Origin: a virus
Lineage: Duplodnaviria > Heunggongvirae > Uroviricota > Caudoviricetes
Length of the DNA stretch: 50,937 nucleotides
Strand: one strand, 5' to 3'
IMG/VR virus record: IMGVR_UViG_2541047814_000001
Shown: piece by piece, positions 1,965 through 50,937 of the stretch
Position numbering within the stretch: the stretch's first letter is position 1
How the letters are laid out: every line of letters begins with the position of its first letter
The notes under the pieces: generated by a model
What the model was told of the DNA's origin: nothing
Seen by the model: only the letters and a program-made list of their open reading frames with translations
Databases searched by the model: none
Made by a program: the position numbers and the translations under genes

Positions 1965-1968
1965 CATC

Positions 1969-2177
1969 CAACCGCAGCACGTTCTTGCTTAAGACGTGCT
2001 GCGGCATAATCCCAATGATTACTCCCTGACAGGGTTCGTAGGCCACTCAATATCAGGTGCAGTTGATGTATCAACACGGTTCAGCAACACCCGATACTTT
2101 TTCCAGGCTTCCAGCAATGAGGTTTCTTCCTCCGTTGCAATTTCCAGATCTGCAGCATCCTGAAGCGGCGCAATATG
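1969..2177. repeat. Direct repeat copy 2 (tfa 3' end and hairpin gcagcacgt-N11-acgtgctgc at 1974-2002)
   Basis: Matches 919-1127; the hairpin lies between the convergent methyltransferase and tfa genes. Confidence 0.8.
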
Positions 2178-6450: not shown

Positions 6451-9400
6451 TCAGCTAATCGTGATGCCTGCAGTGGCTTTCTTCATCACCACAACCAGCA
6501 AATCGCTGATACTTGCTGTGGGATACCAGTTATTTACCAGCCATGCTGACACCGAAAACTCCAGTGTCATGTGACCGTGACCGGCAGGCATATCAATAAC
6601 ACCACTGTAAATCAGCGTATTATCCAGCGCGGTACGGTTATAAATTTCAGCACCGTTTTTCCGCACTATCAGACGGCATGAGGAGTAAATATCAGTATGC
6701 TCTTTCTCATGTTTAGCGCCGCTGAATGCCACCGCCGGAATAACAATCTGCCGGTCAAACGGCTGATCGTCATAAACCCTGACGGTAATGGTTCCTGATG
6801 GCCACCGCTCCGGTGCACGGGAGTCCCGGGGGAAAGCTTTGCCCACTGTTTTAACGAGATCGCCTTCAATCTGGTTCGCGGACAATTTTCCCAGAACCCG
6901 ACAGTTCTCGTTAATCGTGACGTTGTTGAGCGTCCCGGAGTTCGCATTCACGTTACCGCTGATATCGGCATTTTTCGCCGTCAGCCGCCCGTCCGGTGTC
7001 AGGGAAAATGCCGGAGGATTACCGCCGCTGGTAATGGTGGGAGCCGTCAGATATTTCAGGAACACTTCATTCATAAATATCTGATCGCCCTGACCAACAA
7101 ACATCGGCTTTGTGTTGCCATTCGCAGGATTAATCATCGCAATCCTGTCTGCCGCCAGCAGCACCTGACTCTGCATTCCTGCTGGCGTATTCTCAATACC
7201 GGCACCGATACCCGCAATATAAAGGCGTCCGTCCTGCATCTGCTGCAGTTTCACGGCCCACATGCTGTTCAGGTTATTATTTGTATCAACCTGAACTTTC
7301 TGTATCTGCTGGATTGCCGCACTCTGATTTTCCAGTTTTTTATTGACGGTCTGCGTGATTTCATTGCTGACATTCGTAATGGACGTCCTGATTTCAGCCA
7401 GGTCCGGCGCAAGCTGACCGTTATCAATCTGCGTCCACAGCTCCTGGGCCAGATGTGTTTTCCCGATTTCTCCTTTGAAAAAATCCAGGTAACCTTCCGC
7501 ATCATCGCTCGCCCGACCGACAGCCTCCACGAATGCCGATTTGCCAACAGTATTCACACTGCGGATATAAAAATAATAATCATGGCCCGGTTTGATATTG
7601 ATACTGGCAGCTATCCAGTACAGCGCCGAGCCAAGATAGCGGGCTGCGGTTTCAACCTGCCTGATATCCGCAATCCGCTTTTCCGAGAACCAGAACTCAA
7701 ACTGTACCGTCGGGTCATAAACGGCAAGATGCGGCGTGGCGGTTATCTGAAAATAGCCCGGCGTCAGCTCAATCCGCGACGGTGCTGCCGGTGCGGCAAT
7801 CCGGAAGGTGGTGGTGGCAGGTTCACCCTGCTGGCCATAGCTGTTTATCGCCCGCACCGTCAGGGTGTATTCCCCGAGCGGCAGGCCGCTGAAACGGTGC
7901 TCCGTGTCTGCGGTGATAGCGGTGGTCACCAGTCTGGCATCCGTTCCCTTACCACTGGTCAGGCGCAGACTGAAGCGCACACCCTTCACCACCCGCGGCG
8001 TGTCCCATTTCGCCTGCGCCAGATACTGGCCGTCAGCTGCGCTCACCTCCACCGTCAGGTGCTGCACTGCCGGTGGGATGACGCTGTTCAGGGAACCTGA
8101 CTGCGGCTCAAAGCGGGCACCGTTATCCACGATGGCTTCTTTTTCCGGTACGTGCTGCACCGCCGTGATGGCAAAGGTGCCGTCCGTGTTTTCCCGGACG
8201 GAGACACAGCGGAACAGGCGACGGCGCAGTGACGGCAGGGAGAGTCCCCACACCCCGTATGTCTCCACACCATCAGGCAGGGTACTGACCTGTATCCGGT
8301 CCGGCGCGGGGTGTTCGGTGATGTCCACACTCACTGGCTTACCGCTGCCGTTAATCAGGTTCACCGTGGCGGCACCGGTCTCCGGAAGTGTCACTTCACG
8401 GTCCAGCGTCAGGGTGCGGGTGGCAGCATCAATGGACAGGACACGTCCGCCGGTCAGGGTCCCGGCATAGTCGTTATCACAGATTTCAATGATGTCACCG
8501 GGTGTGTGCCGCAGCCCCTGAGACCCGAGCGTGAAATCCACCGTCTGCGTTTCCAGCAGTTCGGTCTTTATCACCCACAGTCCGGCACGGTGGGCCTGAC
8601 CGCGGCTGGTACAGCCGAACGCGTCCATCTTCAGCAGGTTGCGTCCGTAGCGCAGTATGGCTTCCGGGTCTTCCACCAGTTCCGTGGAGGTCTGCCAGCC
8701 GTTCTGCGGGTCGGTGTAATTCACCTCCACCGCCGTGTGCCGGTCCTTCAGGGCACTGAAGCTGTAGCGGAATCCCACGCCGTTATCATCCACCACCACA
8801 TCGCTGTTGGTGTACGGCCACACCACATCCGACGGGCGGTCCTGAACGAACGTCAGCGTCTGACCGTTCCATACCGGCATACAGCGCATCGCAGAGCAGA
8901 AATCACTGAGAACGTCCCACGCCTTACGCTGTTGTGCCAGGTACGCATTAAAGGTCATCCGCGGCTCGGTCCCCCCGAAACCATCCGGGACCGTCTGATC
9001 GCAGTACTGCCCGATGGCATACAGCGCCCACTTGTCCACATCCGCCGCCCCCAGACGTTTTCCCATGCCGTAGCGCGGGTGAGTCAGCATGTCCCACAGG
9101 CACCAGGCCGGGTTGTTGCTGTATGCCGGTTTCAGACTGCCGTCCCAGATACCACTGTACGTGCGTTTTTCCGGGTCATAGTTTGACGGCACCTGGATGA
9201 TACGACCGCGGATATGGTAGTTCACCGTCATCTGCTGGCCGCCGAACTGCTCCGCATCCACCTGCAGCCCCACAATGGCCGTGTTCGGGTAGCACTGTTT
9301 CACATCGATGATTTCGGTGTATGACGACCACAGCGTCTTATTCTGCAGCTGGTCCGTGGTGCTGTCCGCCGTCTCCCTGACCATCCGGATGTTAAAGGGC

Positions 9401-34238: not shown

Positions 34239-34241
34239 GTC

Positions 34242-34430
34242 CATAAGAAAGCCCCTCCGGAGAGGGGCTAAAGCCGCGTATCTGTATCATCATGCACATG
34301 GTGCCGGGTGCCTCCCGGTGAGTTCAGCCCGGTGCCACTAAACCCGCGTCATTCTCGTTTTGATAATCAGAGATTATACCGTCACCAGTCGCCCCTCCGC
34401 TCAGGGGGATTCACCATGCGAAATTTTTTT
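34242..34430. repeat. Direct repeat unit 1 (about 180 bp, imperfect) with GCCCCTCCGGAGAGGGGC hairpin
   Basis: Shares blocks with 34735-34915 (aaagcccctccggagaggggct, ggtgccgggtgcctcccggtga, cccctccgc.cagggggattcaccatgc, tgaattgtgag). Confidence 0.6.
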
Positions 34431-34734
34431 AACAAATGCCCAGTCTGACAGGCAACTGTCAACTTACTGAATTGTGAGCAACATAGCATTTAACGGGGAA
34501 CCTGTTTTCTGCAGTAAAAAGGCCCACCGGAGCGGATGGGCCTGGAAGGATAGCGGTCATGTGATGCCGGTTTCCCGGTAACTCAGCACCGGTATCTGAG
34601 TCAACGTTTTCTCTACTGGGTCATTTCCGATACGCCCTGCCTGCTGACAGGCTTTCATCACATCTGAAAATATAGCACCCTGACTGATACTGTAGTACCT
34701 AAGGTTCCAGAAACTGTGATGTATCCGGCACAGA

Positions 34735-34915
34735 AAAGCCCCTCCGGAGAGGGGCTGGAGAGTGGCGCTATGTGCCATTGCATGGTGCCGGGTGCCTCCC
34801 GGTGAATTCAGTACCAGCACCTGAATCCGCGATTATCCCATATACCTACTCGCTGATTGCCCCTCCGCACAGGGGGATTCACCATGCCAGTTTCTTTTAA
34901 CAAACTCCCCGCAAA
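34735..34915. repeat. Direct repeat unit 2 (partner of 34242-34430)
   Basis: Same conserved blocks in the same order and orientation. Confidence 0.6.
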
Positions 34916-34989
34916 CCAGACAACAGTCAACCGCCTGAATTGTGAGACATTTAAAAAAAGCCCGCAAAAGCGAGCCAGGGAAAATAAGT

Positions 34990-35067
34990 GTGGCGCGTTG
35001 TACTGGATTCGAACCAGTGACCGATTGCTTAGAAGGCAATTGCTCTGTCCGGCTGAGCTAACAACGC
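34990..35067 (-). tRNA. tRNA-Arg (anticodon UCU)
   Basis: Minus strand folds as cloverleaf; anticodon loop CTTCTAA; T-loop TTCGAAT; 3' CCA encoded. Confidence 0.8.
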
Positions 35068-35080
35068 AGGATACAGATAA

Positions 35081-35157
35081 TGGACCGCCTTCGGGGACCC
35101 GAACTCCGCGCAACCAGCTTCGAAAGCTGGCGCTCTTTCCTGATGAGCTAATGGCGG
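35081..35157 (-). tRNA. tRNA-like gene, probably Arg (anticodon read as UCG); atypical T-arm
   Basis: D-arm GCTC...GAGC, anticodon stem CCAGC/GCTGG with loop TTTCGAA, CCA end; T-stem has one mismatch and T-loop is TTCGGGT. Confidence 0.45.
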
Positions 35158-35164
35158 TATGTGA

Positions 35165-35240
35165 TGGTGGCCCTTGCTGGATTTGAACCAGCGACCTGGC
35201 GATTATGAGTCGCTCGCTCTCACCACTGAGCTAAAGGGCC
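35165..35240 (-). tRNA. tRNA-Ile2-like (anticodon CAU; ileX/ileZ type)
   Basis: GGCCCTTTAGCTCAGTGGTGAGAGCGAGCGACTCATAATCGC...GGGCCACCA; near-canonical cloverleaf, 76 nt. Confidence 0.85.
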
Positions 35241-39450: not shown

Positions 39451-39606
39451 TTACTCCTCAGGTTCGTAAGCTGTGAAGACAGCGACCTCCGTCTGGCCGG
39501 TTCGGAGTCGTACCTCGCAGAGGTCTTTCCTCGTTACCAGTGCCGTCACTATGACGGTTAAACAGATGACGATCAGGGCGATTAACATCGCCTTTTGCTG
39601 CTTCAT
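39451..39606 (-). CDS. hok: Hok/Gef-family type I toxin (51 aa)
   Basis: MKQQKAMLIALIVICLTVIVTALVTRKDLCEVRLRTGQTEVAVFTAYEPEE is a near-canonical Hok sequence; the in-frame upstream extension is probably leader, not coding. Confidence 0.85.
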   Translation of the reverse strand: MKQQKAMLIALIVICLTVIVTALVTRKDLCEVRLRTGQTEVAVFTAYEPEE

Positions 39607-39843
39607 AGCCTGCTTCCCCTTGCCTTTCGGCACGTAAGAGGCTAACCTACATTTGTGAGACATAGATTGGGCCTCAGATTAATGTTAAGCGTCTTGCAGG
39701 ACGCGAAATGTTAACTGGGGCTTTTCTCTATCTGCCTTTCAGTGTTCATGCCTGAGACAGATAGCCTCAAGCACCCGCAGCCATTCTACTTAACTCACGT
39801 CACCTCGCCAATATGAAATCAATCAGAAAGGTGATCCATAAAA

Positions 39844-40683: not shown

Positions 40684-41124
40684 CTAGTAACGTCTAAAAT
40701 ACCTAACATTTCCTTGATAAAATGCCAGTACACGCTGCATAGCTTCGCTCTTCCGGCACTCGCGACAGATTATATTCAGGCGCCTGTCGTAGCGGCGTAT
40801 TTCGCCGTCTGGTAACGACCAGATAAGGTCCGGATCAACCACTGCAGGTTTCTTCACCTTTGCCCTTGAGAGTTTTTTGCGAGCATTTTGCCAGTCCTTA
40901 CGCGCCTGTTCAGACGGGAATAACCCGTAACCAGAGTTGTATACATCGCCACTGGCAACCAGCTCTCTGGCGAGAACACTCATCAGATATCTTGTCGCAC
41001 CTGTCCTGGCTTCCAGTTGCCGCAACGTCTCGCGACCGCTCAGACGTACAAGTTCAACAACCTGCCCTTTAATTTTTTCCCGCTCTTCTTGTGTAAATAC
41101 TTTTGCCATAAGCGCCTCCGGCAA
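40684..41124 (-). CDS. Hypothetical phage protein (146 aa)
   Basis: ORF in the nin-like region; C-terminal CxxC (CRECRK); no family recognised. Confidence 0.45.
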   Translation of the reverse strand: MPEALMAKVFTQEEREKIKGQVVELVRLSGRETLRQLEARTGATRYLMSVLARELVASGDVYNSGYGLFPSEQARKDWQNARKKLSRAKVKKPAVVDPDLIWSLPDGEIRRYDRRLNIICRECRKSEAMQRVLAFYQGNVRYFRRY

Positions 41125-41895
41125 TCACTTTTCCGATACAACACGGCGGGAAGAATCAGTAATCTGTCGAACAATATCCCGGTGCTTGTTCAGCTCCCGC
41201 AGCGCGGCGCAGACTCGCTCCCACTTCTGAACATCACTTTTCGCCCTGCGCAGCGCCAGGTTTGCCCTGCGAAGGGACGGAAAAATCAGCTCATCTGCTT
41301 GCGTTTCGGTAAACGATGGCAACGGCTGCACAATGTCCGCCACAGTTTCTGTTTTAATTTCTTCCTGTGTTGCGGCTTCCCGGACTGGTAACGCAGCACC
41401 TGCTGGCTGAGGAAAGGCCTTACCATCACTTTCCGTTACCAGCGCGGCTTTCGGCTCTGCTGGTAAATTATCGCCCGGCATGCAGTAACGAAATTTACCG
41501 TTCTGATTAACGCGTGCCAGCCGCCCCGTTGCGGTTACCACCGCCAGCGTGGAAGCAACCTTGCGAGTACTGACACCGAACTTACCCGCCAGTTCCTCAC
41601 ACGTTTTAGCCCCATCCTGACCGATAAACTCAATCATCATGTCTGCGGTAACTTTTTGTTCGACCTCCCCGGTCAGCATATCCTGTGCTTCAGATTTTAC
41701 TGGCCGCTCTTCGGTTACCCGGGATTCACCTTCGCCAGCCAGAAACCAGGTGTGACCAGTTTTATCAACGACGCCTTTTCTTTTGAGTTCCCACAGCTCG
41801 TTGACAGCCTCTTCACGACTGATTCCAAGGCGAGCTGCCACCACATGTGAAGAGGCTTTTTTCAGTGCTTTCAGTGCGTCAGATACGGTTTCCAT
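41125..41895 (-). CDS. Hypothetical protein with two winged-helix-like segments (256 aa)
   Basis: HTH-like VAARLGISREEAVNELWELKRKGVV and AGKFGVSTRKVASTLAVVTATGRLARV; downstream of the DnaC-like gene. Confidence 0.45.
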   Translation of the reverse strand: METVSDALKALKKASSHVVAARLGISREEAVNELWELKRKGVVDKTGHTWFLAGEGESRVTEERPVKSEAQDMLTGEVEQKVTADMMIEFIGQDGAKTCEELAGKFGVSTRKVASTLAVVTATGRLARVNQNGKFRYCMPGDNLPAEPKAALVTESDGKAFPQPAGAALPVREAATQEEIKTETVADIVQPLPSFTETQADELIFPSLRRANLALRRAKSDVQKWERVCAALRELNKHRDIVRQITDSSRRVVSEK

Positions 41896-41916
41896 TAAAA
41901 TTTCCTCCGGACAAAA

Positions 41917-42663
41917 TTACTTCACAACCCTCATATTGCTGACATTTGGACGCCAGCTATCCCAGTTAAACGTCACCCATCGACCACCGTTCATGGTCAT
42001 GCGGTCCATAATCCTCTCACCAAGAAGCGTACTCATTGCGGCATGATTCAGGTTTGTTAACATCCCGACACTGCACAGTGATGCTGTCCGGCGATCAATT
42101 ATCTGGTGCAATACCACCTGCTCGTTTTTCGTCTCCCGCTGAACGCCTATTTCATCCAGGACCAGCAAATCAACCCCGCAAAGCTCCTGTAAAAATTTTT
42201 CCCCGGATTTGCCGTTGTCGTAGCTGTCATGCAACACGCTCATGACGTCAGACACGGTGACGATAATCACGCTGCGCCCCTTCACCATCAGCCGGTTGCC
42301 CATCGCCGCTGCAAGGTGATTTTTCCCGGTGCCGGTTTTACCGCTGAACACAAAATTCGTGCACCCGGTCATCAGTTCGTCAGCTATGGATTTGGCCTGG
42401 CTCAGCGCGTATTTTTGCCCGTCGTTCTGCACCTGATAATTTGCAAACGAGCATTTGCTGTGCAGAGGCTGGATGCCCGAACGATTCAGGATTTTTTCCA
42501 CCCGCAACTGGCGATTCTGGCGGTTAATCTCCTCGCTGCGTTTTCGTCCTTCAGCAAGTTGCCATTCCCGCCACTCCTCCACCGTCCGGTACGGTGGAAC
42601 CGACCCCTGTGGTGCAAGTCTGCGAATACGTTCAAGAACCCCAACTGCCGCAATGTTTTTCAT
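41917..42663 (-). CDS. DnaC-like helicase loader (AAA+ ATPase, YdaV-like, 248 aa)
   Basis: Walker A SGKTGTGKNHLAAA and Walker B LLVLDEIG; same length as Rac YdaV. Confidence 0.8.
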   Translation of the reverse strand: MKNIAAVGVLERIRRLAPQGSVPPYRTVEEWREWQLAEGRKRSEEINRQNRQLRVEKILNRSGIQPLHSKCSFANYQVQNDGQKYALSQAKSIADELMTGCTNFVFSGKTGTGKNHLAAAMGNRLMVKGRSVIIVTVSDVMSVLHDSYDNGKSGEKFLQELCGVDLLVLDEIGVQRETKNEQVVLHQIIDRRTASLCSVGMLTNLNHAAMSTLLGERIMDRMTMNGGRWVTFNWDSWRPNVSNMRVVK

Positions 42664-42669
42664 GACACG

Positions 42670-43617
42670 TCACCCCCTGAATCCCGGCGGTATTTCAGTG
42701 TCCGGTTCAGAAATGTGATTCACGCAACGCTGCGCAGGCGAACGCCCCAGGCGGATAACCAGTTCATCCCATTTTTCCCGGAGTTTTGCCGGACTCATGA
42801 TGTTTTTTACCCAGAACGAATCCCGCTGGAGACGCCCAAACATTTCACAAATTTGTCTGTGAGTTCTGCCATCCAGCATCCGCATTGTGCGAACGTCATT
42901 GGCCCATGCTGTCCAGTTGGGTTCTTTCGGTCTAGTGATCTCGCCATCATAGCTGGCCGCCTGCTCGTAAAGACTCACGATTCGTCCCCAGATCCACTGT
43001 GCGCACACCAAATCTTCCTGACTTCCCCACTGGCGTTTTTTCGCACTGAACACAACCGCGTCAGGGTGTCGGGTTAAAAAATCCTGTTCAGCCGTCTGCG
43101 GGTCCGGTTGCGAAGCGTCCGGACAAGAAGATCTTTTATCTGACGGATCAGGTTTTAATACTGACGGATCGGGGTCAATCATCGCCCCCCTAATCGGCAG
43201 TTTTTTATCAACAGTTGATCCATCAAAATTTGACGGGTCAACCGTTGAGGGGTCATTTTTTGCCGGGCTAATTTTTCTTTTCGGTTTATATGACTCACGC
43301 GCCGCCGCCGCAGCTGCTTCGAGTTTTTCCACATTAAGCCGATAGATATTGCTTACATTACGCCCACCGACCTTACGCTCTTCCTTCGTCAGCCAGCCCT
43401 CTTTCGCCAGTTCTGCAATAGCCGATTTCACTGTGGATTCACTTCTTGCACCGATCTGACGCCGGATAGTTTCAATGGCAGGCCATGACACGCCCTCGTC
43501 ATTGCTGTAGTCTGCAAGACGGGCCATAACCGCCACCCTGGATAAGATCATGCCGGTGAAGGCGCACCCTTCCCAGACAAGACCATGAAGCTTGCTGCTC
43601 ATAAAACCCCCGAACAC
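42670..43617 (-). CDS. Replication initiation/organiser protein, YdaU-like (DUF1376-like, 315 aa)
   Basis: N-terminal wHTH, internal Pro/Asp-rich repeats (DPSTVDPSNFDGSTVD), position upstream of the DnaC-like loader. Confidence 0.55.
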   Translation of the reverse strand: MFGGFMSSKLHGLVWEGCAFTGMILSRVAVMARLADYSNDEGVSWPAIETIRRQIGARSESTVKSAIAELAKEGWLTKEERKVGGRNVSNIYRLNVEKLEAAAAAARESYKPKRKISPAKNDPSTVDPSNFDGSTVDKKLPIRGAMIDPDPSVLKPDPSDKRSSCPDASQPDPQTAEQDFLTRHPDAVVFSAKKRQWGSQEDLVCAQWIWGRIVSLYEQAASYDGEITRPKEPNWTAWANDVRTMRMLDGRTHRQICEMFGRLQRDSFWVKNIMSPAKLREKWDELVIRLGRSPAQRCVNHISEPDTEIPPGFRG

Positions 43618-43624
43618 CGTGCTT

Positions 43625-44050
43625 TTAGTGCATCACCACAGCATTCCCTGCCGGGCCGCCGCGATTCATCTGGTCATACAAAACAACCGCTGACGCAACA
43701 AAATCATCGACATCCTTCACCAGCCGATCCCTCCGTTCGACGATCTCACGGTAATATTCAGAACTGTGGCTGCGCATACGGGCCACCAGCAAAGGCGGCA
43801 TCGCCTTTTCGATCGCCGGTAACAGAGCCTGCATTTTTTCAACAGCATCAGGGGTGTCTTTATCCAGCCAACGGAAAATTTTCTGGGTATTACGGGCCAG
43901 GGCTTCCGGATGGCTGTCGTCGTACAGTTCAGGGAACGTCATCCCCAGTTCGAAATAAGTCCGGGCTATTTCAGCTGCAGGAACTTTCTCACCATCAGGG
44001 TATGCCCAGGCATTCATCGCCATGCGGATGTGCTCATGTTTGATTTTCAT
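43625..44050 (-). CDS. YdaT-like protein (CII-position analogue, 141 aa)
   Basis: Size and position directly after the Cro-like gene as ydaT in Rac. Confidence 0.5.
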   Translation of the reverse strand: MKIKHEHIRMAMNAWAYPDGEKVPAAEIARTYFELGMTFPELYDDSHPEALARNTQKIFRWLDKDTPDAVEKMQALLPAIEKAMPPLLVARMRSHSSEYYREIVERRDRLVKDVDDFVASAVVLYDQMNRGGPAGNAVVMH

Positions 44051-44357
44051 GAATCATTTGCCTCTTGATGCTTCGGGTATGATCGTTTTCGTCATTTGGT
44101 TGCTTCATCGACATATTCTGCGAATAACATGACGAGCGTCGTAAGTATGTCCAATCAACATCAGGACGAAGTTCTTCACACAGGACACCACCTTTTGTTG
44201 CTCGTTCAATCGCAGGACATCTCTCAGCAGGTAACTGACGTACACCTTTGATCCATTGATTTACGCTTGGAGGAGATACACCTAAAAGCCTAGCCATTGC
44301 TGATTGCCCACCGACAACAGCACAAGCTCGTTTGAATGAATAGTTATCTTTTTTCAT
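44034..44357 (-). CDS. Cro-like HTH regulator, YdaS-like (107 aa from MKKDNY...)
   Basis: HTH ACAVVGGQSAMARLLGVSPPSVNQWIKG; GGAG RBS 8 nt upstream of ATG at 44355-44357 (listed ORF starts at an upstream GTG); divergent from the repressor. Confidence 0.7.
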   Translation of the reverse strand: MKKDNYSFKRACAVVGGQSAMARLLGVSPPSVNQWIKGVRQLPAERCPAIERATKGGVLCEELRPDVDWTYLRRSSCYSQNMSMKQPNDENDHTRSIKRQMIHENQT

Positions 44358-44386
44358 CGAATGAACTCCAAAAAACACGCAACAAT

Positions 44387-44427
44387 ATTAGGCTTAGCCT
44401 AATGAAATTGTCAATAGGCTATGCCTA
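44387..44427. promoter_or_regulatory. Operator cluster (OR-like): palindromes ATTAGGC-TTA-GCCTAAT and TAGGC-TAT-GCCTA between divergent repressor and cro-like genes
   Basis: Perfect 17-bp palindrome at 44387-44403 and a second at 44415-44427. Confidence 0.5.
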
Positions 44428-44481
44428 ATACATCGAGAGTAGGGATTGCCTAACGCGATGCGCATAGGAGACTATTAAGCA

Positions 44482-44958
44482 ATGCTTAGTGGTAAAGACT
44501 TAGGCCGAGCGATAGAGCAGGCCATTAACAAAAAAATTGCATCAGGAGCCGTCAAATCAAAGGCGGAAATCGCACGTCATTTCAAAGTCCAACCACCATC
44601 AATCCATGACTGGATTAAGAAAGGTTCGATAAGTAAAGACAAACTTCCAGAACTATGGCGTTTCTTTTCTGATGTGGTTGGTCCAGAGCATTGGGGGCTT
44701 AACGAATACCCCATACCAACCCCATCCACTTCAGATACAAAAAGTGAACTTTTAGACATAAACAGCCTTTATCAAGCCGCCTCTGATGAAAAAAAAGCAA
44801 TTGTGGCTTTCATCTTATCTGGAAATGCTACGGAGCCTAGTTGGGTTGATTATGACGTTCGCGCCTACATTGCCGCAATGGAAATGAAGGTAGCTAACTA
44901 TCTGAAAAATCAAGAATCAAAACGGAAAAGCCAGAACATCACCAAGACAGGAACTTAA
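44482..44958 (+). CDS. Prophage repressor, RacR-like HTH protein (158 aa; no S24 peptidase domain seen)
   Basis: HTH KAEIARHFKVQPPSIHDWIKKGSI; divergent from cro-like gene; flanked by operator palindromes; same length as Rac RacR. Confidence 0.6.
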   Translation: MLSGKDLGRAIEQAINKKIASGAVKSKAEIARHFKVQPPSIHDWIKKGSISKDKLPELWRFFSDVVGPEHWGLNEYPIPTPSTSDTKSELLDINSLYQAASDEKKAIVAFILSGNATEPSWVDYDVRAYIAAMEMKVANYLKNQESKRKSQNITKTGT

Positions 44959-45053
44959 ACTTATATGGTCCGACGGGAAATTCCTAGTTCCCGTTAGTTA
45001 ACTCCTACTACCTCTCCCACAAACCATCACCTATTAGGTTGCGCCCAAATTAT

Positions 45054-45095
45054 TAGGCATAGCCTATTGACAAGTAATTAGGCATTTCCTATAGT
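45054..45095 (+). promoter_or_regulatory. PL-like early-left promoter (TTGACA - 17 nt - TATAGT) overlapped by TAGGC...GCCTA operator sites
   Basis: -35 at 45067-45072, -10 at 45090-45095; palindrome TAGGC-ATA-GCCTA at 45054-45066 and imperfect TAGGCATTTCCTA in the spacer. Confidence 0.5.
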
Positions 45096-45276
45096 TTTCC
45101 CATACCAACCCATCCCGTCCCACACAATACAGGGCAATACCTCGAGTTACCAGGCAGTGGTCAGGGGTTAAGTAGCCAGCCCGAGGCGTAAGAACATGAC
45201 GGCAGGGTTCAACTTTAATAACTATGCAGCAGGTTTTTGTTCCGCTACCCCGGCGTTAAGGGGAAATGAGGTCAGC

Positions 45277-45429
45277 ATGGATACTATCGAGCTTGGCAAC
45301 AACGAATCTCTGGTATGCGGCGTGTTTCCCAACCAGGACGGCACGTTTACCGCGATGACATATACCAGAAGCAAAACGTTTAAAACTGAAGCTGGCGCGC
45401 GTCGCTGGTTAACCAGAAACACTGACTGA
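45277..45429 (+). CDS. Small protein, YdfA-like by position (50 aa from MDTIEL...)
   Basis: GAGG RBS 5 nt upstream of internal ATG; first gene after the PL-like promoter. Confidence 0.45.
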   Translation: MDTIELGNNESLVCGVFPNQDGTFTAMTYTRSKTFKTEAGARRWLTRNTD

Positions 45430-45440
45430 TGAGGTTGACG

Positions 45441-45761
45441 ATGGAATTTAAAGATTTACCAGTACCATTCCAGGAAATGGCATCGAATGTGGTTCGCTCT
45501 CAACTGGCGACTCTTGACCTGAGTACCGTAGAAAAAGAAACCATCGACAATATATCCGGTAACGTACGCCGAGCCTTTATCGGGCTGTACGAAGAGAAGC
45601 AGCTCTCTGATAACCAGGATTTACATGAAAAATACTTCCTGGATCTAATGGACATCATTGATAAGGGGTTTGGCTTGTTAATGAAAAAGAAAGGGATTCG
45701 AATAGAACCCCTTGAAAATTACTTTGCAACAAAAAGCATTAATTCTTTTGATTCAAAATAA
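45441..45761 (+). CDS. Hypothetical protein (106 aa), YdfB/YdfC-position gene
   Basis: GAGG RBS upstream of ATG (MEFKDL...); hydrophilic; upstream of the dicF region. Confidence 0.4.
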   Translation: MEFKDLPVPFQEMASNVVRSQLATLDLSTVEKETIDNISGNVRRAFIGLYEEKQLSDNQDLHEKYFLDLMDIIDKGFGLLMKKKGIRIEPLENYFATKSINSFDSK

Positions 45762-46014
45762 GAGAATTAATTACAGACTTAACATGCTCTTTCTCATGAT
45801 TGAAGCTCTCATGATTGAAAGTGCCGGGTTGAAGCGAGTCGATATAATCAACAAGACTCTGTCGTACGACTTCATTTTTATCCATAACAGATGCAAGAAA
45901 TGAAATTGCTAAAAGAGTTATATCACTACGCGCCGCAGCATGTTGCAATGCTTTATCAAAATTATTAATCTGGCGTATCAGGGAGTTAATGATTTCATCA
46001 TTTTCAGTCGACAT
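45739..46014 (-). CDS. Hypothetical protein (91 aa) antisense to the early-left transcript
   Basis: Strong RBS AGGAGG-gtgaa-ATG; complex composition; 3' end overlaps the convergent plus-strand gene by 23 bp. Confidence 0.35.
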   Translation of the reverse strand: MSTENDEIINSLIRQINNFDKALQHAAARSDITLLAISFLASVMDKNEVVRQSLVDYIDSLQPGTFNHESFNHEKEHVKSVINSLILNQKN

Positions 46015-46348
46015 TTCACCCTCCTGAGGGTTGGTGATTAAGGAGTTCTCCACGGGTGAGGTGGAGTGCGTGCGCCGGACACGGGTGAGCATCCGGCACT
46101 GACAGTTTACTGAAAGGATATTTCCCTGAAAAGTCAGACCATAACGCGAAAGCGCCCGGCGAGGTAGCTGGTTCATAGATAGCCTGTCGTTAAATTTTCG
46201 TCGACCGTGCGTTTCCGGTTGTGGCAATCCGCGAAATGGCGCGGCGGTAAGTATGGCGGGGTTATTCCTTCCCCGTTGAGGACACCGAGTTGTCAGGTTG
46301 ACCATACGCTTAAGTGACAACCCCGCTGCAACGCCCTCTGTTATCAAT

Positions 46349-46406
46349 TTTCTGGTGACGTTTGGCGGTATCAGTTTTACTCCGTGACTGCTCTGCCGCC
46401 CTTTTT
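46349..46406 (+). ncRNA. dicF: DicF sRNA (53 nt plus T-tract terminator)
   Basis: TTTCTGGTGACGTTTGGCGGTATCAGTTTTACTCCGTGACTGCTCTGCCGCCC followed by TTTTT matches the DicF sequence as I recall it; lies upstream of dicB as in Qin. Confidence 0.65.
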
Positions 46407-46575
46407 AAAGTGAATTTTGTGATGTGGTGAATGCGGCTGAGCGCACGCGGAACAGTTAAAACCAAAAACAGTGTTATGGGTGGATTCTCTGTATCCGGCG
46501 TTAATTGTTAACTGGTTAACGTCACCTGGAGGCACCAGGCACCGCATCACAAAATTCATTGTTGAGGACGCGATA

Positions 46576-46764
46576 ATGGAAACGTTATTACCAAACATTA
46601 ATACGTCTGAAGGTTGTTTTGAAATTGGTGTCACTATCAGTAACCCTGTATTTACTGAAGATGCCATTAACAAGAGAAAACACGAACGGGAGCTATTAAA
46701 TAAAATATGCATTCTTTCAATGCTGGCCCGTTTACGTCCGATACAAAAAGGATGCTGGCAATGA
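46576..46764 (+). CDS. dicB: Cell-division inhibitor DicB (62 aa)
   Basis: METLLPNINTSEGCFEIGVTISNPVFTEDAINKRKHERELLNKICILSMLARLRPIQKGCWQ; 62 aa; GAGGA RBS; downstream of dicF. Confidence 0.75.
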   Translation: METLLPNINTSEGCFEIGVTISNPVFTEDAINKRKHERELLNKICILSMLARLRPIQKGCWQ

Positions 46765-46952
46765 ATACAGCATTTGCACTTGTTCTGACAGTTTTTCTTG
46801 TTTCCGGAGAGCCAGTTGATATTGCAGTCAGTGTTCACAGGACAATGCAGGAGTGTGTGACTGCAGCAACCGAACAGAAAATTCCCGGTAACTGTTACCC
46901 GGTCGATAAAGTTATTCACCAGGATAATAACGAAATCCCGGCAGGTCTTTAA
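46761..46952 (+). CDS. ydfD: YdfD-like small protein with N-terminal hydrophobic segment (63 aa)
   Basis: ATGA overlap with dicB stop; MNTAFALVLTVFLVSGEP signal/TM-like; size equals Qin YdfD. Confidence 0.6.
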   Translation: MNTAFALVLTVFLVSGEPVDIAVSVHRTMQECVTAATEQKIPGNCYPVDKVIHQDNNEIPAGL

Positions 46953-47044
46953 AACAGTTCCGTAATAAATATCCGGTTTCATTCTTATATGCCAGCAATG
47001 GCAGGGATTTGTTCACCCTTAAATCTGTAATGAGGTAAAACAAA

Positions 47045-49516
47045 ATGAGTAAAGTCTTTATTTGCGCCGCCATTCCGGACGAACAGGCAATAAAGGAAGA
47101 AGGTGCCGTCGCTGTAGCCACTGCCATTGAAGCCGGTGATGAACGTCGCGCCCGCGCAAAATTTCACTGGCAATTCCTGGAACATTATCCGGCTGCTCAG
47201 GACTGCGCTTATAAATTTCTTGTCTGCGAGGATAAACCCGGTATACCCCGCCCTGCCCTCGATTCCTGGGATGCTGAATATATGCAGGAAAACCGCTGGG
47301 ATGAGGAGTCTGCTTCCTTTGTCCCGGTTGAGACTGAATCAGATCCGATGAACGTCACTTTTGACAAGCTGGCCCCTGAAGTACAGAACGCTGTCATGGT
47401 TAAGTTCGACACATGTGAAAACATCACCGTTGATATGGTTATTAGCGCACAGGAATTGTTGCAGGAAGACATGGCAACATTCGACGGACATATCGTTGAA
47501 GCGTTGATGAAAATGCCAGAAGTTAACGCCATGTATCCGGAGCTTAAGCTGCATGCCATCGGGTGGGTTAAGCATAAATGTAAGCCTGGTGCCAAATGGC
47601 CCGAAATTCAGGCAGAGATGCGCATCTGGAAAAAACGTCGCGAAGGTGAACGCAAGGAAACCGGAAAATACACGTCTGTTGTTGATCTCGCCCGCGCCAG
47701 AACCAATCAACAGCACAGTGAAAATTCAACAGGAAAAATCAGCCCGGTCATTGCTGCCATTCATCGCGAATACAAGCAGACATGGAAAACACTGGATGAC
47801 GAACTGGCCTACGCTCTCTGGCCTGGTGATGTGGATGCCGGAAACATTGACGGCAGCATCCATCGCTGGGCAAAAAATGAAGTTATCGACAACGACCGCG
47901 AAGACTGGAAGCGTATCTCGGCATCAATGCGCAAACAGCCTGATGCCCTTCGCTACGACCGCCAGACTATTTTTGGCCTTGTCCGTGAACGTCCGATCGA
48001 CATTCACAAAGACCCTGTGGCACTGAACAAATACATTACTGAATACCTGACTACAAAGGGCGTGTTTGAAGATGAAGGAAGAAATCAGAGCGCAACTGAT
48101 ACTCTCTCGTCGCCAGTACCAGAAACTGATGCAGTGGAAACGGCAATTCCGGGCAACGAAAAAACCGAATGCAAAGTGGAAGTCGAACCATCTGTAGAGC
48201 GTGAGGGGCCGTTCTACTTCCTCTTCACCGACAAGGATGGCGAAAAATACGGTCGCGCAAACAAACTTTCTGGTCTGGAAAAAGCACTAGCCTTGGGAGC
48301 TACGGAAATCACAAAAGAGGAATACTTCGCACGTAAAAACGGCACGTACTCAGGTTCACAACAAAATACTGGTGCATCTGACACGACCGCACAACCAGAG
48401 CCGGTAAAAGTTACCGCTGACGAAGTAAACAAAATTATGCAGGCAGCCAATATCAGCCAGCCTGACGCCGATAAGTTGCTTGCTGCCTCTCGCGGAGAAT
48501 TTGTTGCAGGGATTAGCGACCCGAATGATCCGAAATGGGTAAAGGGGATTGAAACCCGCGATTCTGTAAACCAGAACCAGCAAGAATCGGAACAGAACGA
48601 CCAGAAAGCGGAACAAAACAGCCCAAATACGCAACAAAACGAGCCAGAAACGAAACAACCTGAGCCAGTAGCGCAACAGGAACCGGAAAAAGTCTGCACC
48701 GCCTGCGGTCAAAGCGGTGGCGGCAACTGCCCTGATTGTGGCGCGGTGATGGGTGACGCAACATACCAGGAAACATTCGATGAAGAGAATCAGGTTGAAG
48801 TTCAGGAAAATGATCCGAAGGAAATGGAAGGCGCTGAACATCCACACAAGGAGAATGCTGGTAGCGCTCAGGATCACGCCAGCGATAGTGAAACTGGCGA
48901 GACGGCAGATCCCTTAATTGCGATGAACGGTCATCACGTTATCACATCCACCAGCAGGACGTGTGACCATCTAATGATCGACCTTGAAACCATGGGAAAA
49001 AATCCTGATGCCCCGATTATCTCAATAGGTGCAATATTTTTCGATCCGCAAACCGGAGATATGGGACCGGAATTTAGTAAGACTATCGATCTGGAAACTG
49101 CTGGCGGAGTCATTGATCGTGACGTCATTAAAAGGTGGCTGAAGCAATCACGTGAAGCGCAGTCTGCCATTATGACCGATGAAATCCCGTTAGATGATGC
49201 ACTGTTACAATTGCGGGAATTTATCGACGAAAACTCCGGTGAATTTTTTGTTCAGGTCTGGGGAAATGGAGCCAACTTCGACAACACGATTTTGCGCCGT
49301 TCATACGAACGGCAGGGGATCCCCTGCCCGTGGCGTTACTACAACGATCGCGATGTACGCACAATCGTTGAGCTGGGGAAAGCCATAGACTTCGATGCCA
49401 GAACGGCTATTCCATTCGAAGGTGAGCGCCATAATGCACTTGATGACGCCCGTTACCAGGCAAAATACATTTCAGTTATCTGGCAAAAACTGATCCCGAA
49501 TCAGGCTGATTTTTAA
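47045..49516 (+). CDS. Large exonuclease-like protein with C-terminal DnaQ-like DEDDh 3'-5' exonuclease domain (823 aa)
   Basis: Exo motifs MIDLETMG, VWGNGANFDNTIL, HNALDDARY in the C-terminal ~190 aa; Cys cluster CTACGQSGGGNCPDCG; Gln/Glu/Asn-rich linker. Confidence 0.75.
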   Translation: MSKVFICAAIPDEQAIKEEGAVAVATAIEAGDERRARAKFHWQFLEHYPAAQDCAYKFLVCEDKPGIPRPALDSWDAEYMQENRWDEESASFVPVETESDPMNVTFDKLAPEVQNAVMVKFDTCENITVDMVISAQELLQEDMATFDGHIVEALMKMPEVNAMYPELKLHAIGWVKHKCKPGAKWPEIQAEMRIWKKRREGERKETGKYTSVVDLARARTNQQHSENSTGKISPVIAAIHREYKQTWKTLDDELAYALWPGDVDAGNIDGSIHRWAKNEVIDNDREDWKRISASMRKQPDALRYDRQTIFGLVRERPIDIHKDPVALNKYITEYLTTKGVFEDEGRNQSATDTLSSPVPETDAVETAIPGNEKTECKVEVEPSVEREGPFYFLFTDKDGEKYGRANKLSGLEKALALGATEITKEEYFARKNGTYSGSQQNTGASDTTAQPEPVKVTADEVNKIMQAANISQPDADKLLAASRGEFVAGISDPNDPKWVKGIETRDSVNQNQQESEQNDQKAEQNSPNTQQNEPETKQPEPVAQQEPEKVCTACGQSGGGNCPDCGAVMGDATYQETFDEENQVEVQENDPKEMEGAEHPHKENAGSAQDHASDSETGETADPLIAMNGHHVITSTSRTCDHLMIDLETMGKNPDAPIISIGAIFFDPQTGDMGPEFSKTIDLETAGGVIDRDVIKRWLKQSREAQSAIMTDEIPLDDALLQLREFIDENSGEFFVQVWGNGANFDNTILRRSYERQGIPCPWRYYNDRDVRTIVELGKAIDFDARTAIPFEGERHNALDDARYQAKYISVIWQKLIPNQADF

Positions 49517-49580
49517 TGTTCAACCCCGGTCGTTGCCCACCAGCTATAGTGGCGGCGACCATGATTAGCGAACGACGCTC

Positions 49581-49829
49581 ATGGCAAGACTTATTCTGCT
49601 CACTGAGTGGGCAAAAGAGGAATTCAGTGAACCGGTCCCTACTCCGAGTACGTTAAGTAAATACGCTAAAGCCGGAATGATATTTCCTCTCCCCAAAAAA
49701 GTTGGAAGACGCTGGCGAGTGGATCCGCAAGCTCGCTTTGTCGGAATGGTAAACAAGCCGGAGGTGATCGCCACAGATCACCCTGCTTTGAAGAGGATAC
49801 TGGAAGATGGCGCGCCCGCGAAAATATAA
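49581..49829 (+). CDS. xis: Excisionase-like protein (82 aa)
   Basis: Small basic protein immediately upstream of and overlapping int; IFPLPKKVGRRWRVD resembles Xis winged helix. Confidence 0.55.
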   Translation: MARLILLTEWAKEEFSEPVPTPSTLSKYAKAGMIFPLPKKVGRRWRVDPQARFVGMVNKPEVIATDHPALKRILEDGAPAKI

Positions 49830-50937
49830 AACCGATGTTCCGGGATTATCTCCGTATTTTGACAAAAGAAATAACAAAGTTTACTGGCGTTACAGGCATC
49901 CCATAACAGGCAAAAATCACGGTCTCGGCAGTATTGACCAGAAACTGGCAGAAACTATTGCAGCAGAAGCGAACAGCCGTCTTGCCCGGCAGCAAATGGA
50001 ACAAATGCTCAGTCTGCAGGAGAAAATTATTAGTGATACCGGCGGTTCATCAACCGTTACCATTTTTCTGAATAATTACAGAAAAATTCAACAGGAAAGA
50101 TATGAAAACGGCGAGATCAAACTCAACACGCTGAAACAGAAAGCGGCCCCTCTCAGGGTATTTGATGAACGTTTTGGCACCAGACCGTTAGATGCCATAA
50201 CCGTAAAAGATGTGGTATCAGTACTGGAAGAGTACAAGGCCAGAGGACATAACAGAATGGGACAAATTTTCAGGAAAGTACTGATCGATGTTTTCCGGGA
50301 AGCTCAGCAAACGGGCGATGTCCCGCCAGGCTTTAACCCTGCAGAATCGGCAAAAAAACCGCAGGTGCGGATATCAAGACAGCGACTGACTTTTGATGAG
50401 TGGATGATGATTTATAACGCAGCGGAAAAGGATGGTTACTTTTTACAGCGCGGTATGCTGCTGGCACTGATGACAGGCCAGCGCCTTTCAGATATTTGCA
50501 AAATGCAATTTTCGGATATCCGGGATGGTTATCTTCATGTCGAACAGCAAAAAACAGGAACCCGGATTGCCATCCCTCTGGCTCTGCGTTGCGATAAATT
50601 AAATCTCACCCTGGATGATGTGGTGTCATCCTGCCGCGATTGCGTTCTTAGTCCGTGGCTATTGCACCACCATCACGCGAAAGGGACAGCTAAGCGCGGC
50701 GGGATGGTTAAGCCAGCAACATTAACCGTTGCATTTAAAAAAGCCCGGGATTCTGTGGATTACAACTGGCGTGCTAATGGCACCCCTCCCTCTTTCCATG
50801 AGCAGAGATCTTTATCAGAGCGATTGTTCAGAGAGCAGGGGGTTGATACCAAAATTTTGCTAGGCCATTCGAATCAAAAAATGACCGATATTTACAACGA
50901 CGCACGCGGTAAGGAATGGAAAAAACTGGTCATTTGA
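49807..50937 (+). CDS. int: Tyrosine integrase, lambda Int family (376 aa)
   Basis: N-terminal arm-binding domain (MARPRKYKTDVPGLSPYFDKRNNKVYWRYRHPITGKNHGLG) and catalytic motifs (GQRLSDICKMQFSDI, HEQRSLSERL, LLGHSNQKMTDIYNDARG) parallel lambda Int. Confidence 0.9.
   Translation: MARPRKYKTDVPGLSPYFDKRNNKVYWRYRHPITGKNHGLGSIDQKLAETIAAEANSRLARQQMEQMLSLQEKIISDTGGSSTVTIFLNNYRKIQQERYENGEIKLNTLKQKAAPLRVFDERFGTRPLDAITVKDVVSVLEEYKARGHNRMGQIFRKVLIDVFREAQQTGDVPPGFNPAESAKKPQVRISRQRLTFDEWMMIYNAAEKDGYFLQRGMLLALMTGQRLSDICKMQFSDIRDGYLHVEQQKTGTRIAIPLALRCDKLNLTLDDVVSSCRDCVLSPWLLHHHHAKGTAKRGGMVKPATLTVAFKKARDSVDYNWRANGTPPSFHEQRSLSERLFREQGVDTKILLGHSNQKMTDIYNDARGKEWKKLVI

What the first reader, a model, noticed from the sequence alone, without database searches (positions are those of the whole stretch)
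44380..46952. Mosaic early region: Rac-type immunity/replication genes joined to a Qin-type dicF-dicB-ydfD module
The repressor (158 aa), YdaS-like Cro, YdaT-, YdaU- and DnaC-like proteins follow the Rac pattern, while the operon downstream of the repressor contains DicF, DicB (62 aa) and a YdfD-like protein as in Qin. Perfect TTAGGC-N3-GCCTAA palindromes flank the repressor gene on both sides (OR-like 44387-44427; OL-like 45054-45095 overlapping a TTGACA-17-TATAGT promoter). This gives a testable operator for a repressor type whose binding site is not something I can cite.
Basis: partly seen in the sequence, partly recalled or inferred. Interest (0 to 1): 0.4.

Follow-up and report, generated by a model that had tools for sequence, protein, structure and literature searches.

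The report
RacR-controlled dicF-dicB prophage early region
This is the immunity and early-left region of an ordinary lambda-like E. coli prophage: a RacR repressor flanked by its already published operator sites, next to the well-known DicF/DicB cell-division-inhibitor genes. It is correctly read, but almost all of it is already known.

Summary
RacR (158 aa, 90% identical to K-12 RacR), a YdaS/Cro-like gene, DicF (identical to K-12 dicF), DicB (62 aa) and YdfD are at the stated coordinates. TAGGC-N3-GCCTA sites cluster on both sides of racR: 5 of the 6 window hits, against 0.87 expected.

Segment-by-segment comparison confirms a mosaic relative to K-12:
- 44027-45264 is Rac-like (86%).
- 46029-47811 is Qin-like (96%).
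- 45409-46028 matches neither.

Three corrections:
- The "YdaU-like" protein is an O-like replication initiator, not DUF1376.
- YdaT is only 31% identical to K-12 YdaT.
- Only one site is a perfect 6+6 palindrome.

The RacR operator (T/A)TAGGC-n3-GCCTA(T/A) was footprinted and published in 2022, so the operator is not a new handle. The downstream pair (45053-45092), interlocked with a TTGACA-17-TATAGT promoter, is not mentioned in the RacR papers I searched. Yet the same cassette sits next to RacR homologues in Mixta, Proteus and Achromobacter.

Best reading: a lambda-like OL/PL under RacR drives DUF1391-orf106-DicF-DicB-YdfD. Repressor binding to these sites is inferred, not shown.

The same arrangement is in at least 144 of 5426 complete E. 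coli genomes. Low interest.

The parts
41917..42663 (-). DnaC-like helicase loader (YdaV homologue)
   Evidence: NCBIfam PRK12377 506 bits. 80% identical to K-12 YdaV.
42670..43602 (-). O-like replication initiator (not YdaU)
   Evidence: phrog_391 388 bits and Pfam HTH_36. Only the C-terminal 19 aa resemble YdaU. No DNA similarity to Rac.
43625..44050 (-). YdaT/CII-like regulator, divergent allele
   Evidence: Pfam YdaT_toxin 40.9 bits and phrog_163 'CII-like'. 31% identical to K-12 YdaT.
44040..44057 (-). YdaT-box ATGATT-N6-AATCAA over the ydaT start codon
   Evidence: Pattern match. Same sequence as the footprinted K-12 YdaT-box (PMC11879457).
44034..44357 (-). ydaS (Cro-like)
   Evidence: Pfam YdaS_toxin 103.9 bits and P22_Cro. 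85% identical to K-12 YdaS.
44385..44414 (-). PydaST (PR-like) promoter TTGACA-18-TAATAT
   Evidence: Scan, 10 of 12 positions. Same hexamers as the mapped K-12 PydaST (PMC11879457).
44388..44402 (.). OR operator, TTAGGC-TTA-GCCTAA, overlaps the -10 of PydaST
   Evidence: Corresponds to published RacR O1 (PMC9638921).
44414..44428 (.). OR operator, ATAGGC-TAT-GCCTAA, abuts the -35 of PydaST
   Evidence: Part of a 23-nt perfect mirror repeat with the OL side (I2).
44439..44453 (.). OR operator with one core mismatch (GTAGGG-ATT-GCCTAA)
   Evidence: Conserved in K-12 Rac.
44475..44489 (.). Inverted repeat TTAAGC-AAT-GCTTAG over the racR ATG
   Evidence: Read from the sequence. Equals the published operator overlapping the racR start (PMC9638921). 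It reads TTAGGC-AAT-GCTTA in distant homologues.
44482..44958 (+). racR repressor, 158 aa
   Evidence: NCBIfam NF049929 equivalog 244.6 bits. 90% identical to K-12 RacR.
45034..45048 (.). Weak third OL-side site TTAGGT-TGC-GCCCAA
   Evidence: D1. Present in K-12 Rac, absent in distant loci.
45053..45067 (.). OL operator A, TTAGGC-ATA-GCCTAT, abuts the -35 of PL
   Evidence: Core arms invariant in 8 of 8 loci from Escherichia to Achromobacter.
45067..45095 (+). PL-like promoter TTGACA-17-TATAGT
   Evidence: Scan, 11 of 12 positions. The -35 is conserved directly after operator A in 8 of 8 loci.
45078..45092 (.). OL operator B, TTAGGC-ATT-TCCTAT, overlaps the spacer and -10 of PL
45096..45276 (+). 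PL leader. 45101-45240 is shared with many other E. coli prophages.
   Evidence: 3700 genomes match this half. No significant fold. No Rfam hit.
45277..45429 (+). DUF1391 gene (YdfA/YdaF-like), 50 aa
   Evidence: Pfam 97.8 bits. 88% identical to YdfA and 84% to YdaF.
45441..45761 (+). 106-aa ORF, phage family of unknown function
   Evidence: phrog_6937 224 bits. Absent from K-12 Rac and Qin.
45739..46014 (-). Convergent 91-aa ORF with an AGGAGG ribosome-binding site and its own terminator-like hairpin (45713-45691)
   Evidence: Annotated as hypothetical WP_000102678.1. No Pfam, PHROG or PADLOC hit.
46029..46348 (+). Untranslated pre-DicF segment (RNase III/E processing region in Qin)
   Evidence: About 98% identical to Qin. 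Processing described in PMC10448788.
46349..46401 (+). DicF sRNA
   Evidence: Rfam RF00039 76.7 bits. Identical to K-12 b1574.
46576..46764 (+). dicB, 62 aa
   Evidence: Pfam PF05358 125.9 bits and NCBIfam NF049927 130.7 bits. 87% identical to K-12 DicB.
46761..46952 (+). ydfD (DUF1482), 63 aa. Its start overlaps the dicB stop (ATGA).
   Evidence: Pfam 88 bits. 94% identical to K-12 YdfD.
46990..47013 (+). Terminator-like hairpin after ydfD
   Evidence: Fits the Qin transcripts that end after ydfD (PMC10448788).
47045..49516 (+). 823-aa exonuclease (intact counterpart of the Qin ydfE pseudogene; RecE-related)
   Evidence: phrog_2082. 97% identical to ydfE over 256 aa and 39% to RecE.

Best explanation
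The region is the immunity and early-left segment of a lambda-like E. coli prophage that in strain MS 145-7 sits next to ompW.

Architecture:
- RacR, a CI analogue without a LexA-type cleavage domain, is transcribed divergently from ydaS (Cro-like) and ydaT (CII-like).
- Two mirror-image promoter/operator cassettes flank racR. Each has one (T/A)TAGGC-N3-GCCTA(T/A) site abutting the -35 TTGACA and a second site 25-26 bp away over the spacer and -10.
- The left cassette is the known PydaST/OR. The right cassette (45053-45095) is a PL/OL equivalent.

Proposed mechanism:
- In the lysogen RacR occupies both cassettes. It silences PydaST and also PL.
- PL is the only strong promoter upstream of DUF1391-orf106-DicF-DicB-YdfD.
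- When RacR is lost or inactivated, PL fires. [quoted passage not shown] DicB, acting with MinC, blocks septation. The host therefore stops dividing early in induction.
- The dicBF cassette here is thus under RacR rather than DicA.

Shown: gene and RNA identities, site positions and their conservation.
Inferred: RacR binding at OL, PL activity, and dependence of DicF/DicB on PL.
For: Identities:
- Gene and RNA assignments rest.

Operator sites:
- The sites cluster well beyond chance.
- A 23-nt perfect inverted repeat links OR site plus -35 to OL site plus -35 (I2).
- The promoters match 11 of 12 and 10 of 12 consensus positions.
- K-12 Rac has the same layout. Its arms are conserved while the N3 spacers differ, TTA versus GAC and TAT versus TGT.
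- In 12 loci with RacR homologues of 57-90% identity, every hit with at most 1 mismatch lies either within about 100 bp upstream of racR or in a downstream group, most often a pair spaced 25 bp. There are no hits elsewhere in about 85 kb.
- The OL cassette [site][TTGAC(A/T)]N6-T[site] followed by a -10-like hexamer (TATAGT, TAATAT or variants) is kept in Mixta, Proteus, a Pseudomonadota MAG and Achromobacter.

Literature:
- RacR footprints and the consensus for the racR-ydaS intergenic region are in PMC9638921.
- RacR forms an octamer (PMC11014345).
- The Rac left-operon genes ydaG, ydaF, kilR, ydaE and racC rise 40-70 fold when RacR falls (PMC6765115 and PMC11014345; bioRxiv 10.64898/2026.09.06.749655).
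- In Qin, DicF comes only from the polycistronic transcript of the repressor-controlled upstream promoter. No internal promoter was found (PMC10448788).

No + strand terminator-like site lies between PL and dicF.
Against: - No binding, transcription-start or expression data exist for this prophage.
- Operator B at PL has a core mismatch (TCCTA).
- A convergent 91-aa gene lies between PL and dicF and could interfere with read-through.
- One older study cited in PMC10448788 proposed a promoter upstream of dicB.
- Rho-dependent termination in the roughly 320-nt untranslated pre-dicF segment cannot be excluded.
- Three of the 12 RacR-homologue loci (Klebsiella, Nitrosomonas MAG, Aeromonas MAG) show no OL pair within 3.5 kb.
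Confidence: 0.8

Rival explanations
1. The downstream palindromes are a relic or a secondary binding site, and dicF-dicB are expressed from their own promoter or by read-through, independent of RacR.
For: - One earlier report of a promoter upstream of dicB is mentioned in PMC10448788.
- A convergent ORF and a long untranslated segment lie between PL and dicF.
Against: - The operator/-35/-10 interlock is conserved across genera.
- Qin data show no internal promoter.
- No other promoter-like site on the + strand lies between 45096 and 46349.
- K-12 left-operon genes are derepressed when RacR falls.
Confidence: 0.1
2. The sites at PL are used mainly by YdaS (Cro-like) rather than RacR. OL would then act late, to shut down early-left transcription, not to maintain lysogeny.
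For: - In CP-933P both PaaR2 and YdaS regulate PL933P (PMC8630535).
- RacR and YdaS are said to compete for the same operators (PMC11014345).
Against: - The sites match the half-site ATTAGGC derived from RacR footprints (PMC9638921).
- The two readings are not exclusive. In lambda both proteins use the same sites.
Confidence: 0.07
3. The 'mosaic' is only an artefact of comparing with two decayed K-12 remnants. On this view the arrangement is the ordinary intact state of a common prophage lineage, not a recombinant.
For: - The arrangement is found in at least 144 complete genomes.
- K-12 Rac retains an 80% identical dicF-dicB spacer in front of kilR, and kilS shares the DicF terminator half.
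- The dicBF module pairs with other repressors in isolated phages such as Tritos.
- The PL leader is shared by many prophages.
Against: Sharp changes in identity are real: 86% Rac-like, then no similarity, then 96% Qin-like. Modular exchange did therefore occur at some time, as in all lambdoid phages.
Confidence: 0.5

Closest known systems
E. coli K-12 Rac prophage immunity region (racR / ydaS-ydaT, RacR operators; PMC9638921, PMC11014345, PMC11879457)
   Same: - RacR is 90% identical, YdaS 85% and YdaV 80%.
- The operator motif is the same, and so is the layout of sites on both sides of racR.
- The PydaST hexamers and the YdaT-box are the same.
   Different: - Downstream of PL, Rac carries ydaG-ydaF-[sieB]-kilS-kilR-ydaE-racC. 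This window carries DUF1391-orf106-[orf91]-dicF-dicB-ydfD instead.
- The initiator belongs to a different family.
- YdaT is 31% identical.
E. coli K-12 Qin prophage dicBF operon (ydfABC-dicF-dicB-ydfDE under DicA/DicC; PMC10448788)
   Same: - dicF is identical.
- The pre-dicF processing region is about 98% identical.
- DicB is 87% identical and YdfD 94%.
- The N-terminal 256 aa of the exonuclease are 97% identical to the Qin ydfE pseudogene.
- A DUF1391 gene comes first in both operons.
   Different: - The repressor, operators and promoter are RacR-type, not DicA/dicBp.
- ydfB and ydfC are replaced by orf106 and a convergent orf91.
- The exonuclease is intact, not cut by IS2.
CP-933P (E. coli O157:H7) PaaR2 / YdaS / YdaT switch with PR, PRM and PL933P (PMC8630535)
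   Same: - A repressor gene diverges from ydaS-ydaT.
- Operator sets lie on both sides of the repressor operon.
- The repressor forms an octamer.
- Division-inhibitor genes (kil and/or dicB) lie on the repressor side.
   Different: - The repressor family and operator sequence differ (consensus GTTTAGTAA).
- CP-933P carries a toxin-antitoxin pair in the repressor operon.
Phage lambda CI with OL/OR and PL/PR
   Same: - A repressor gene is bracketed by two promoter/operator sets.
- The sites overlap the -35 and -10.
- The repressor is octamer-capable.
- The early-left operon carries a host division inhibitor (kil).
   Different: - The operator is a 15-bp site with a 3-bp spacer.
- The OL-OR distance is about 0.65 kb rather than 2.3 kb.
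- The repressor has no RecA-sensitive domain.
- There is no N gene after PL.

Membership tests
RacR repressor family | Sequence passes the NCBIfam equivalog NF049929 | tested here: met
   244.6 bits against a cut-off of 200. 90% identical to K-12 RacR.
RacR repressor family | Divergent ydaS-ydaT, with (T/A)TAGGC-n3-GCCTA(T/A) operators in the intergenic region | tested here: met
   Sites at 44388, 44414, 44439 and 44475. Motif as published in PMC9638921.
RacR repressor family | The protein binds these operators and represses PydaST | not testable with these tools
   Shown for K-12 RacR only (PMC9638921).
DicF sRNA (Rfam RF00039) | Covariance-model score above the gathering threshold, full length | tested here: met
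   76.7 bits against 48, model positions 1-52. Identical to K-12 dicF.
DicF sRNA (Rfam RF00039) | Embedded in a polycistronic dicB-type operon, upstream of dicB | tested here: met
   dicF at 46349-46401 and dicB at 46576. The pre-dicF region is about 98% identical to Qin.
DicB | Pfam PF05358 and NCBIfam NF049927 above cut-off | tested here: met
   125.9 and 130.7 bits.
YdfD (DUF1482) | Pfam PF07358 above cut-off; gene directly after dicB | tested here: met
   88 bits against 25. ATGA overlap with the dicB stop.
YdaU (DUF1376) replication protein | Homology to K-12 YdaU / Pfam DUF1376 | tested here: not met
   No DUF1376 hit. The protein hits HTH_36 and phrog_391, O-like. BLASTP similarity is limited to the last 19 aa.
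YdaT (CII-like) | Pfam PF06254 above cut-off; YdaT-box over its own start codon | tested here: met
   40.9 bits against 21. Box at 44040-44057. Only 31% identical to K-12 YdaT.
Lambda-type OL/OR immunity architecture | Operator sets overlapping outward promoters on both sides of the repressor gene | tested here: met
   Conserved across genera.
Lambda-type OL/OR immunity architecture | Repressor-mediated OL-OR looping or cooperative repression | not testable with these tools
   Only the octameric state of K-12 RacR is reported (PMC11014345).

The most novel reading that the evidence does not exclude
RacR-type immunity modules carry a second operator pair (OL) fused to a PL promoter. This pair is conserved, and I did not find it described in the RacR papers I could search.

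Together with the reported RacR octamer, this suggests lambda-like OL-OR looping over about 0.65 kb. The published model instead has four dimers sitting side by side in the racR-ydaS intergenic region.

In the prophage lineage seen here, this OL/PL would place the DicF/DicB division block in the RacR regulon. In such strains loss of RacR would then be toxic through DicBF as well as through YdaS/YdaT.
Probability: 0.4. Interest if true: 0.3.

Novelty: new member of a known kind. Interest (0 to 1): 0.15.

Why it matters
It matters little beyond tidy annotation. Every component is characterised: RacR, its operator motif, YdaS/YdaT, DicF, DicB and YdfD. Module shuffling is the rule in lambdoid phages.

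Two small points could be useful:
- PGAP does not annotate dicF in the identical RefSeq copy. The sRNA is therefore invisible in that annotation, and probably in the other copies of this arrangement.
- The conserved OL/PL cassette gives RacR workers a second, easily testable target. It would explain the 40-70-fold derepression of the Rac left operon and the octameric state of RacR. It also predicts that dicBF is repressed by RacR, not DicA, in about 3% of E. coli genomes.

Tried and rejected
- LexA boxes: I searched for CTGT-N8-ACAG to link induction to an SOS-controlled antirepressor. The single hit, at 13118, is at chance level. The left end of the window differs from strain MS 145-7, so the ash/Rha genes of that strain cannot be assumed here.
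- PL leader as a structured RNA (nut- or put-like): I tested 45101-45280. The fold gives z = +1.2, and Rfam at E<=1 returns only DicF. Rejected.
- orf106, orf91, DUF1391 and YdfD as defence genes: no PADLOC hits.
- DicF in 11 of the RacR-homologue loci from other species: none within 3.5 kb. The racR-dicBF link therefore looks specific to E. coli prophages.
- Faubladier & Bouche 1994 (PMC205167), on dicF-related prophage sequences, is not held. I could not check whether the kilS/dicF slot homology was already reported.
- The 13-nt exact repeat CCCATACCAACCC (44710 and 45099) is not conserved in K-12. I treat it as chance.
- The heavy protein-database searches and structure prediction were not used. 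They would not change the verdict.
Full report
WHAT IS THERE

The right-hand 9 kb of the window is the replication, immunity, early-left and integration part of a lambda-like E. coli prophage. The stretch 44000-47100 is 100% identical to DNA in several complete E. coli genomes. One example is strain MS 145-7, where the prophage ends with xis and int next to ompW. At least 144 of 5426 complete genomes hold 80% or more of this 3.1-kb stretch in one place.

Gene calls, from ORFs, Pfam, NCBIfam and PHROG scans and the RefSeq annotation:
- DnaC-like loader, 41917-42663 (-)
- O-like initiator, 42670-43602 (-)
- YdaT/CII-like, 43625-44050 (-)
- YdaS/Cro-like, 44034-44357 (-)
- RacR, 44482-44958 (+)
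- DUF1391, 45277-45429
- a 106-aa phage ORF, 45441-45761
- a convergent 91-aa ORF, 45739-46014 (-)
- DicF, 46349-46401
- DicB, 46576-46764
- YdfD, 46761-46952
- an 823-aa exonuclease, 47045-49516
- xis and int

CHECK OF THE OBSERVATION

RacR passes the NCBIfam equivalog model (244.6 bits, cut-off 200) and is 90% identical to K-12 RacR. DicF scores 76.7 bits against a gathering score of 48 and is identical to K-12 dicF in the alignment. DicB (62 aa) and YdfD (63 aa) pass their Pfam models. They are 87% and 94% identical to the K-12 proteins.

The core motif TAGGC-N3-GCCTA with at most 1 mismatch occurs six times in the window. Five of those hits are at 44389, 44415, 44440, 45054 and 45079. The expectation is 0.87, and no shuffle of 100 reached 6. 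The promoter TTGACA-17-TATAGT is at 45067-45095, matching 11 of 12 positions. A mirror promoter TTGACA-18-TAATAT is at 44414-44385 on the other strand.

Corrections:
- Only 44388-44402 is a perfect TTAGGC-N3-GCCTAA. The others are perfect over 5+5 bases or have one core mismatch.
- The "YdaU-like" protein is not YdaU-like. It gives no DUF1376 hit. It hits HTH_36 and phrog_391 "replication initiation O-like", and only its last 19 residues align with YdaU.
- YdaT is 31% identical to K-12 YdaT.

THE MOSAIC

BLASTN of 41000-50937 against K-12 Rac and Qin, with alignments A1 and A2, gives these blocks:

| Window range | Content | Similarity |
|---|---|---|
| 41736-42706 | DnaC-like loader | 77% Rac-like |
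| 42707-44026 | initiator, ydaT | no similarity to either |
| 44027-45264 | ydaS, OR, racR, OL/PL, leader | 86% Rac-like |
| 45239-45408 | DUF1391 | 92% Qin-like; 86% to Rac ydaF over 45286-45410 |
| 45409-46028 | orf106, orf91 | no similarity to either |
| 46029-47811 | pre-dicF, dicF, dicB, ydfD, 5' part of exonuclease | 96% Qin-like |
| 48469-48918 | exonuclease | 77% recE-like |

It is also ordinary:
- The dicF-dicB-ydfD block is present at 80% coverage or more in 3828 of 5426 genomes, with up to 10 places per genome.
- The same block is joined to a different CI/Cro pair in the isolated phage Tritos.
- The RacR immunity block is joined to kil in phage vB_EcoS-683R6.
- K-12 Rac keeps the same slot. 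The dicF-dicB spacer is 80% identical to the DNA in front of kilR, and the sRNA KilS shares the DicF terminator half but not its 5' seed.
- The population data place the immunity-module boundary at about the +1 of PL. The operator half of a 281-nt probe is found in 1080 genomes, while the leader half (45101-45240) is found in 3700.

THE OPERATORS

It is. Wisniewska and colleagues footprinted RacR on the K-12 racR-ydaS intergenic region. They derived the half-site ATTAGGC and defined inverted repeats 5'-(T/A)TAGGC-n3-GCCTA(T/A)-3' as operators (PMC9638921). They later described four inverted repeats and an octameric RacR (PMC11014345). The window's sites at 44388, 44414, 44439 and 44475 (the last over the racR ATG) correspond one-to-one to the K-12 sites.

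The downstream set is not mentioned in those papers. Searches of PMC9638921 for ydaG, ydaF, kilR, sieB, looping or left operator found nothing. PMC11014345 places all four sites between racR and ydaS.

The comparative evidence for the downstream set is strong:
- K-12 Rac has the same pair and promoter.
- OR site plus -35 and OL site plus -35 form a 23-nt perfect inverted repeat, so PL and PydaST are mirror copies of one cassette (I2).
- In 12 loci encoding RacR homologues (57-90% identity, from Escherichia, Mixta, Klebsiella, Proteus, Achromobacter and MAGs), every motif hit lies either just upstream of racR or in a downstream group, most often a pair spaced 25 bp. No hits occur elsewhere in about 85 kb.
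- The downstream cassette [TAGGC-N3-GCCTA][TTGAC(A/T)]-N6-T-[TAGGC-N3-GCCTA], followed by a -10-like hexamer (TATAGT, TAATAT or variants), is kept in 8 of 8 loci that have it. The N3 spacers and flanks vary freely.

MECHANISM

The sequence features above are shown. The following steps are inferred. RacR bound at OL represses PL, and PL transcribes DUF1391-orf106-DicF-DicB-YdfD. A terminator-like hairpin follows ydfD at 46990. This matches the Qin transcripts that stop after ydfD (PMC10448788).

Support comes from two systems:
- In K-12 Rac, the left-operon genes (ydaG, ydaF, kilR, ydaE, racC and on to xisR/intR) rise 40-70 fold or more when RacR is lowered.
- In Qin, DicF arises only by RNase III/RNase E processing of the transcript from the repressor-controlled promoter upstream of ydfA, with no internal promoter.

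The processing region is about 98% conserved here. No other + strand promoter-like or terminator-like site lies between PL and dicF. The dicBF division-inhibition cassette is therefore most likely under RacR in this lineage, where Qin uses DicA. The functions of DicF (ftsZ mRNA pairing) and DicB (division block with MinC) are taken from the literature, not tested here.

NOVELTY AND SCORE

All parts are known and the operator motif is published. The identical DNA is already in RefSeq with racR and dicB annotated, though dicF is not. The only point I could not find in the literature is the conserved OL/PL cassette of RacR-type immunity modules. With it comes the implication that OL-OR looping may explain the RacR octamer.

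I rate this a new member of a known kind, with interest 0.15.

Noticed in passing
window 46290-46580 versus K-12 Rac (L002 7225-7520, - strand): The Rac sRNA KilS occupies the same slot as DicF. The two share the terminator half (GGCGG-ATCAGTTTT...CCGCCCTTTTT). The spacer down to the kilR/dicB start codon is about 80% identical, but the 5' seed differs. The paper that named KilS (PMC8175672) does not mention DicF, and the Rfam DicF model does not hit the Rac-like locus.
   Followed up: partly
window 45101-45240: The untranslated leader just downstream of PL is shared by far more E. coli genomes (3700 of 5426, up to 7 places per genome) than the operator/promoter part upstream of it (1080). The immunity-module boundary therefore sits at about +1 of PL. 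The leader shows no significant fold and no Rfam match.
   Followed up: partly
window 45739-46014 (- strand), hairpin 45713-45691: A 91-aa ORF lies convergent to the PL operon. It has a strong AGGAGG ribosome-binding site and its own terminator-like hairpin. It has no Pfam, PHROG or PADLOC hit. It sits in the position that the opposite-strand gene sieB occupies in K-12 Rac, so it may be a lysogen-expressed moron.
   Followed up: partly
window 42670-43602 (- strand): The replication initiator is O-like (phrog_391, HTH_36) but ends in the same ...IPPGFRG tail as K-12 YdaU, a protein of a different family. The downstream DnaC-like loader is 80% identical to YdaV. The shared tail may be the loader-docking peptide kept through an initiator swap.
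   Followed up: no
window 44040-44057: A YdaT-box (ATGATT-CATGAA-AATCAA) identical to the footprinted K-12 box overlaps the ydaT start codon, although this YdaT is only 31% identical to K-12 YdaT.
   Followed up: partly
L001 (NZ_CP146655.1) 8350-8402, equal to window 46349-46401: The RefSeq/PGAP annotation of the identical prophage lists dicB and the DUF1482 gene but no dicF ncRNA feature.
   Followed up: no
window 34239-34448 and 34726-34916 (- strand); 34994-35240; 39601-39776: There are two STnc100 sRNA copies, three tRNA genes and a hok/sok (hokD-type) locus in the late-regulatory part of the prophage. A match to the IS009 RNA family lies at 2062-2260.
   Followed up: no
window 1780-2460 versus L016: The left end of the window does not match the ash/Rha region annotated at these coordinates in strain MS 145-7. 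The ALIL pseudoknot also sits at a different coordinate (26374 versus 28790). The window therefore comes from a related but not identical prophage or strain.
   Followed up: no
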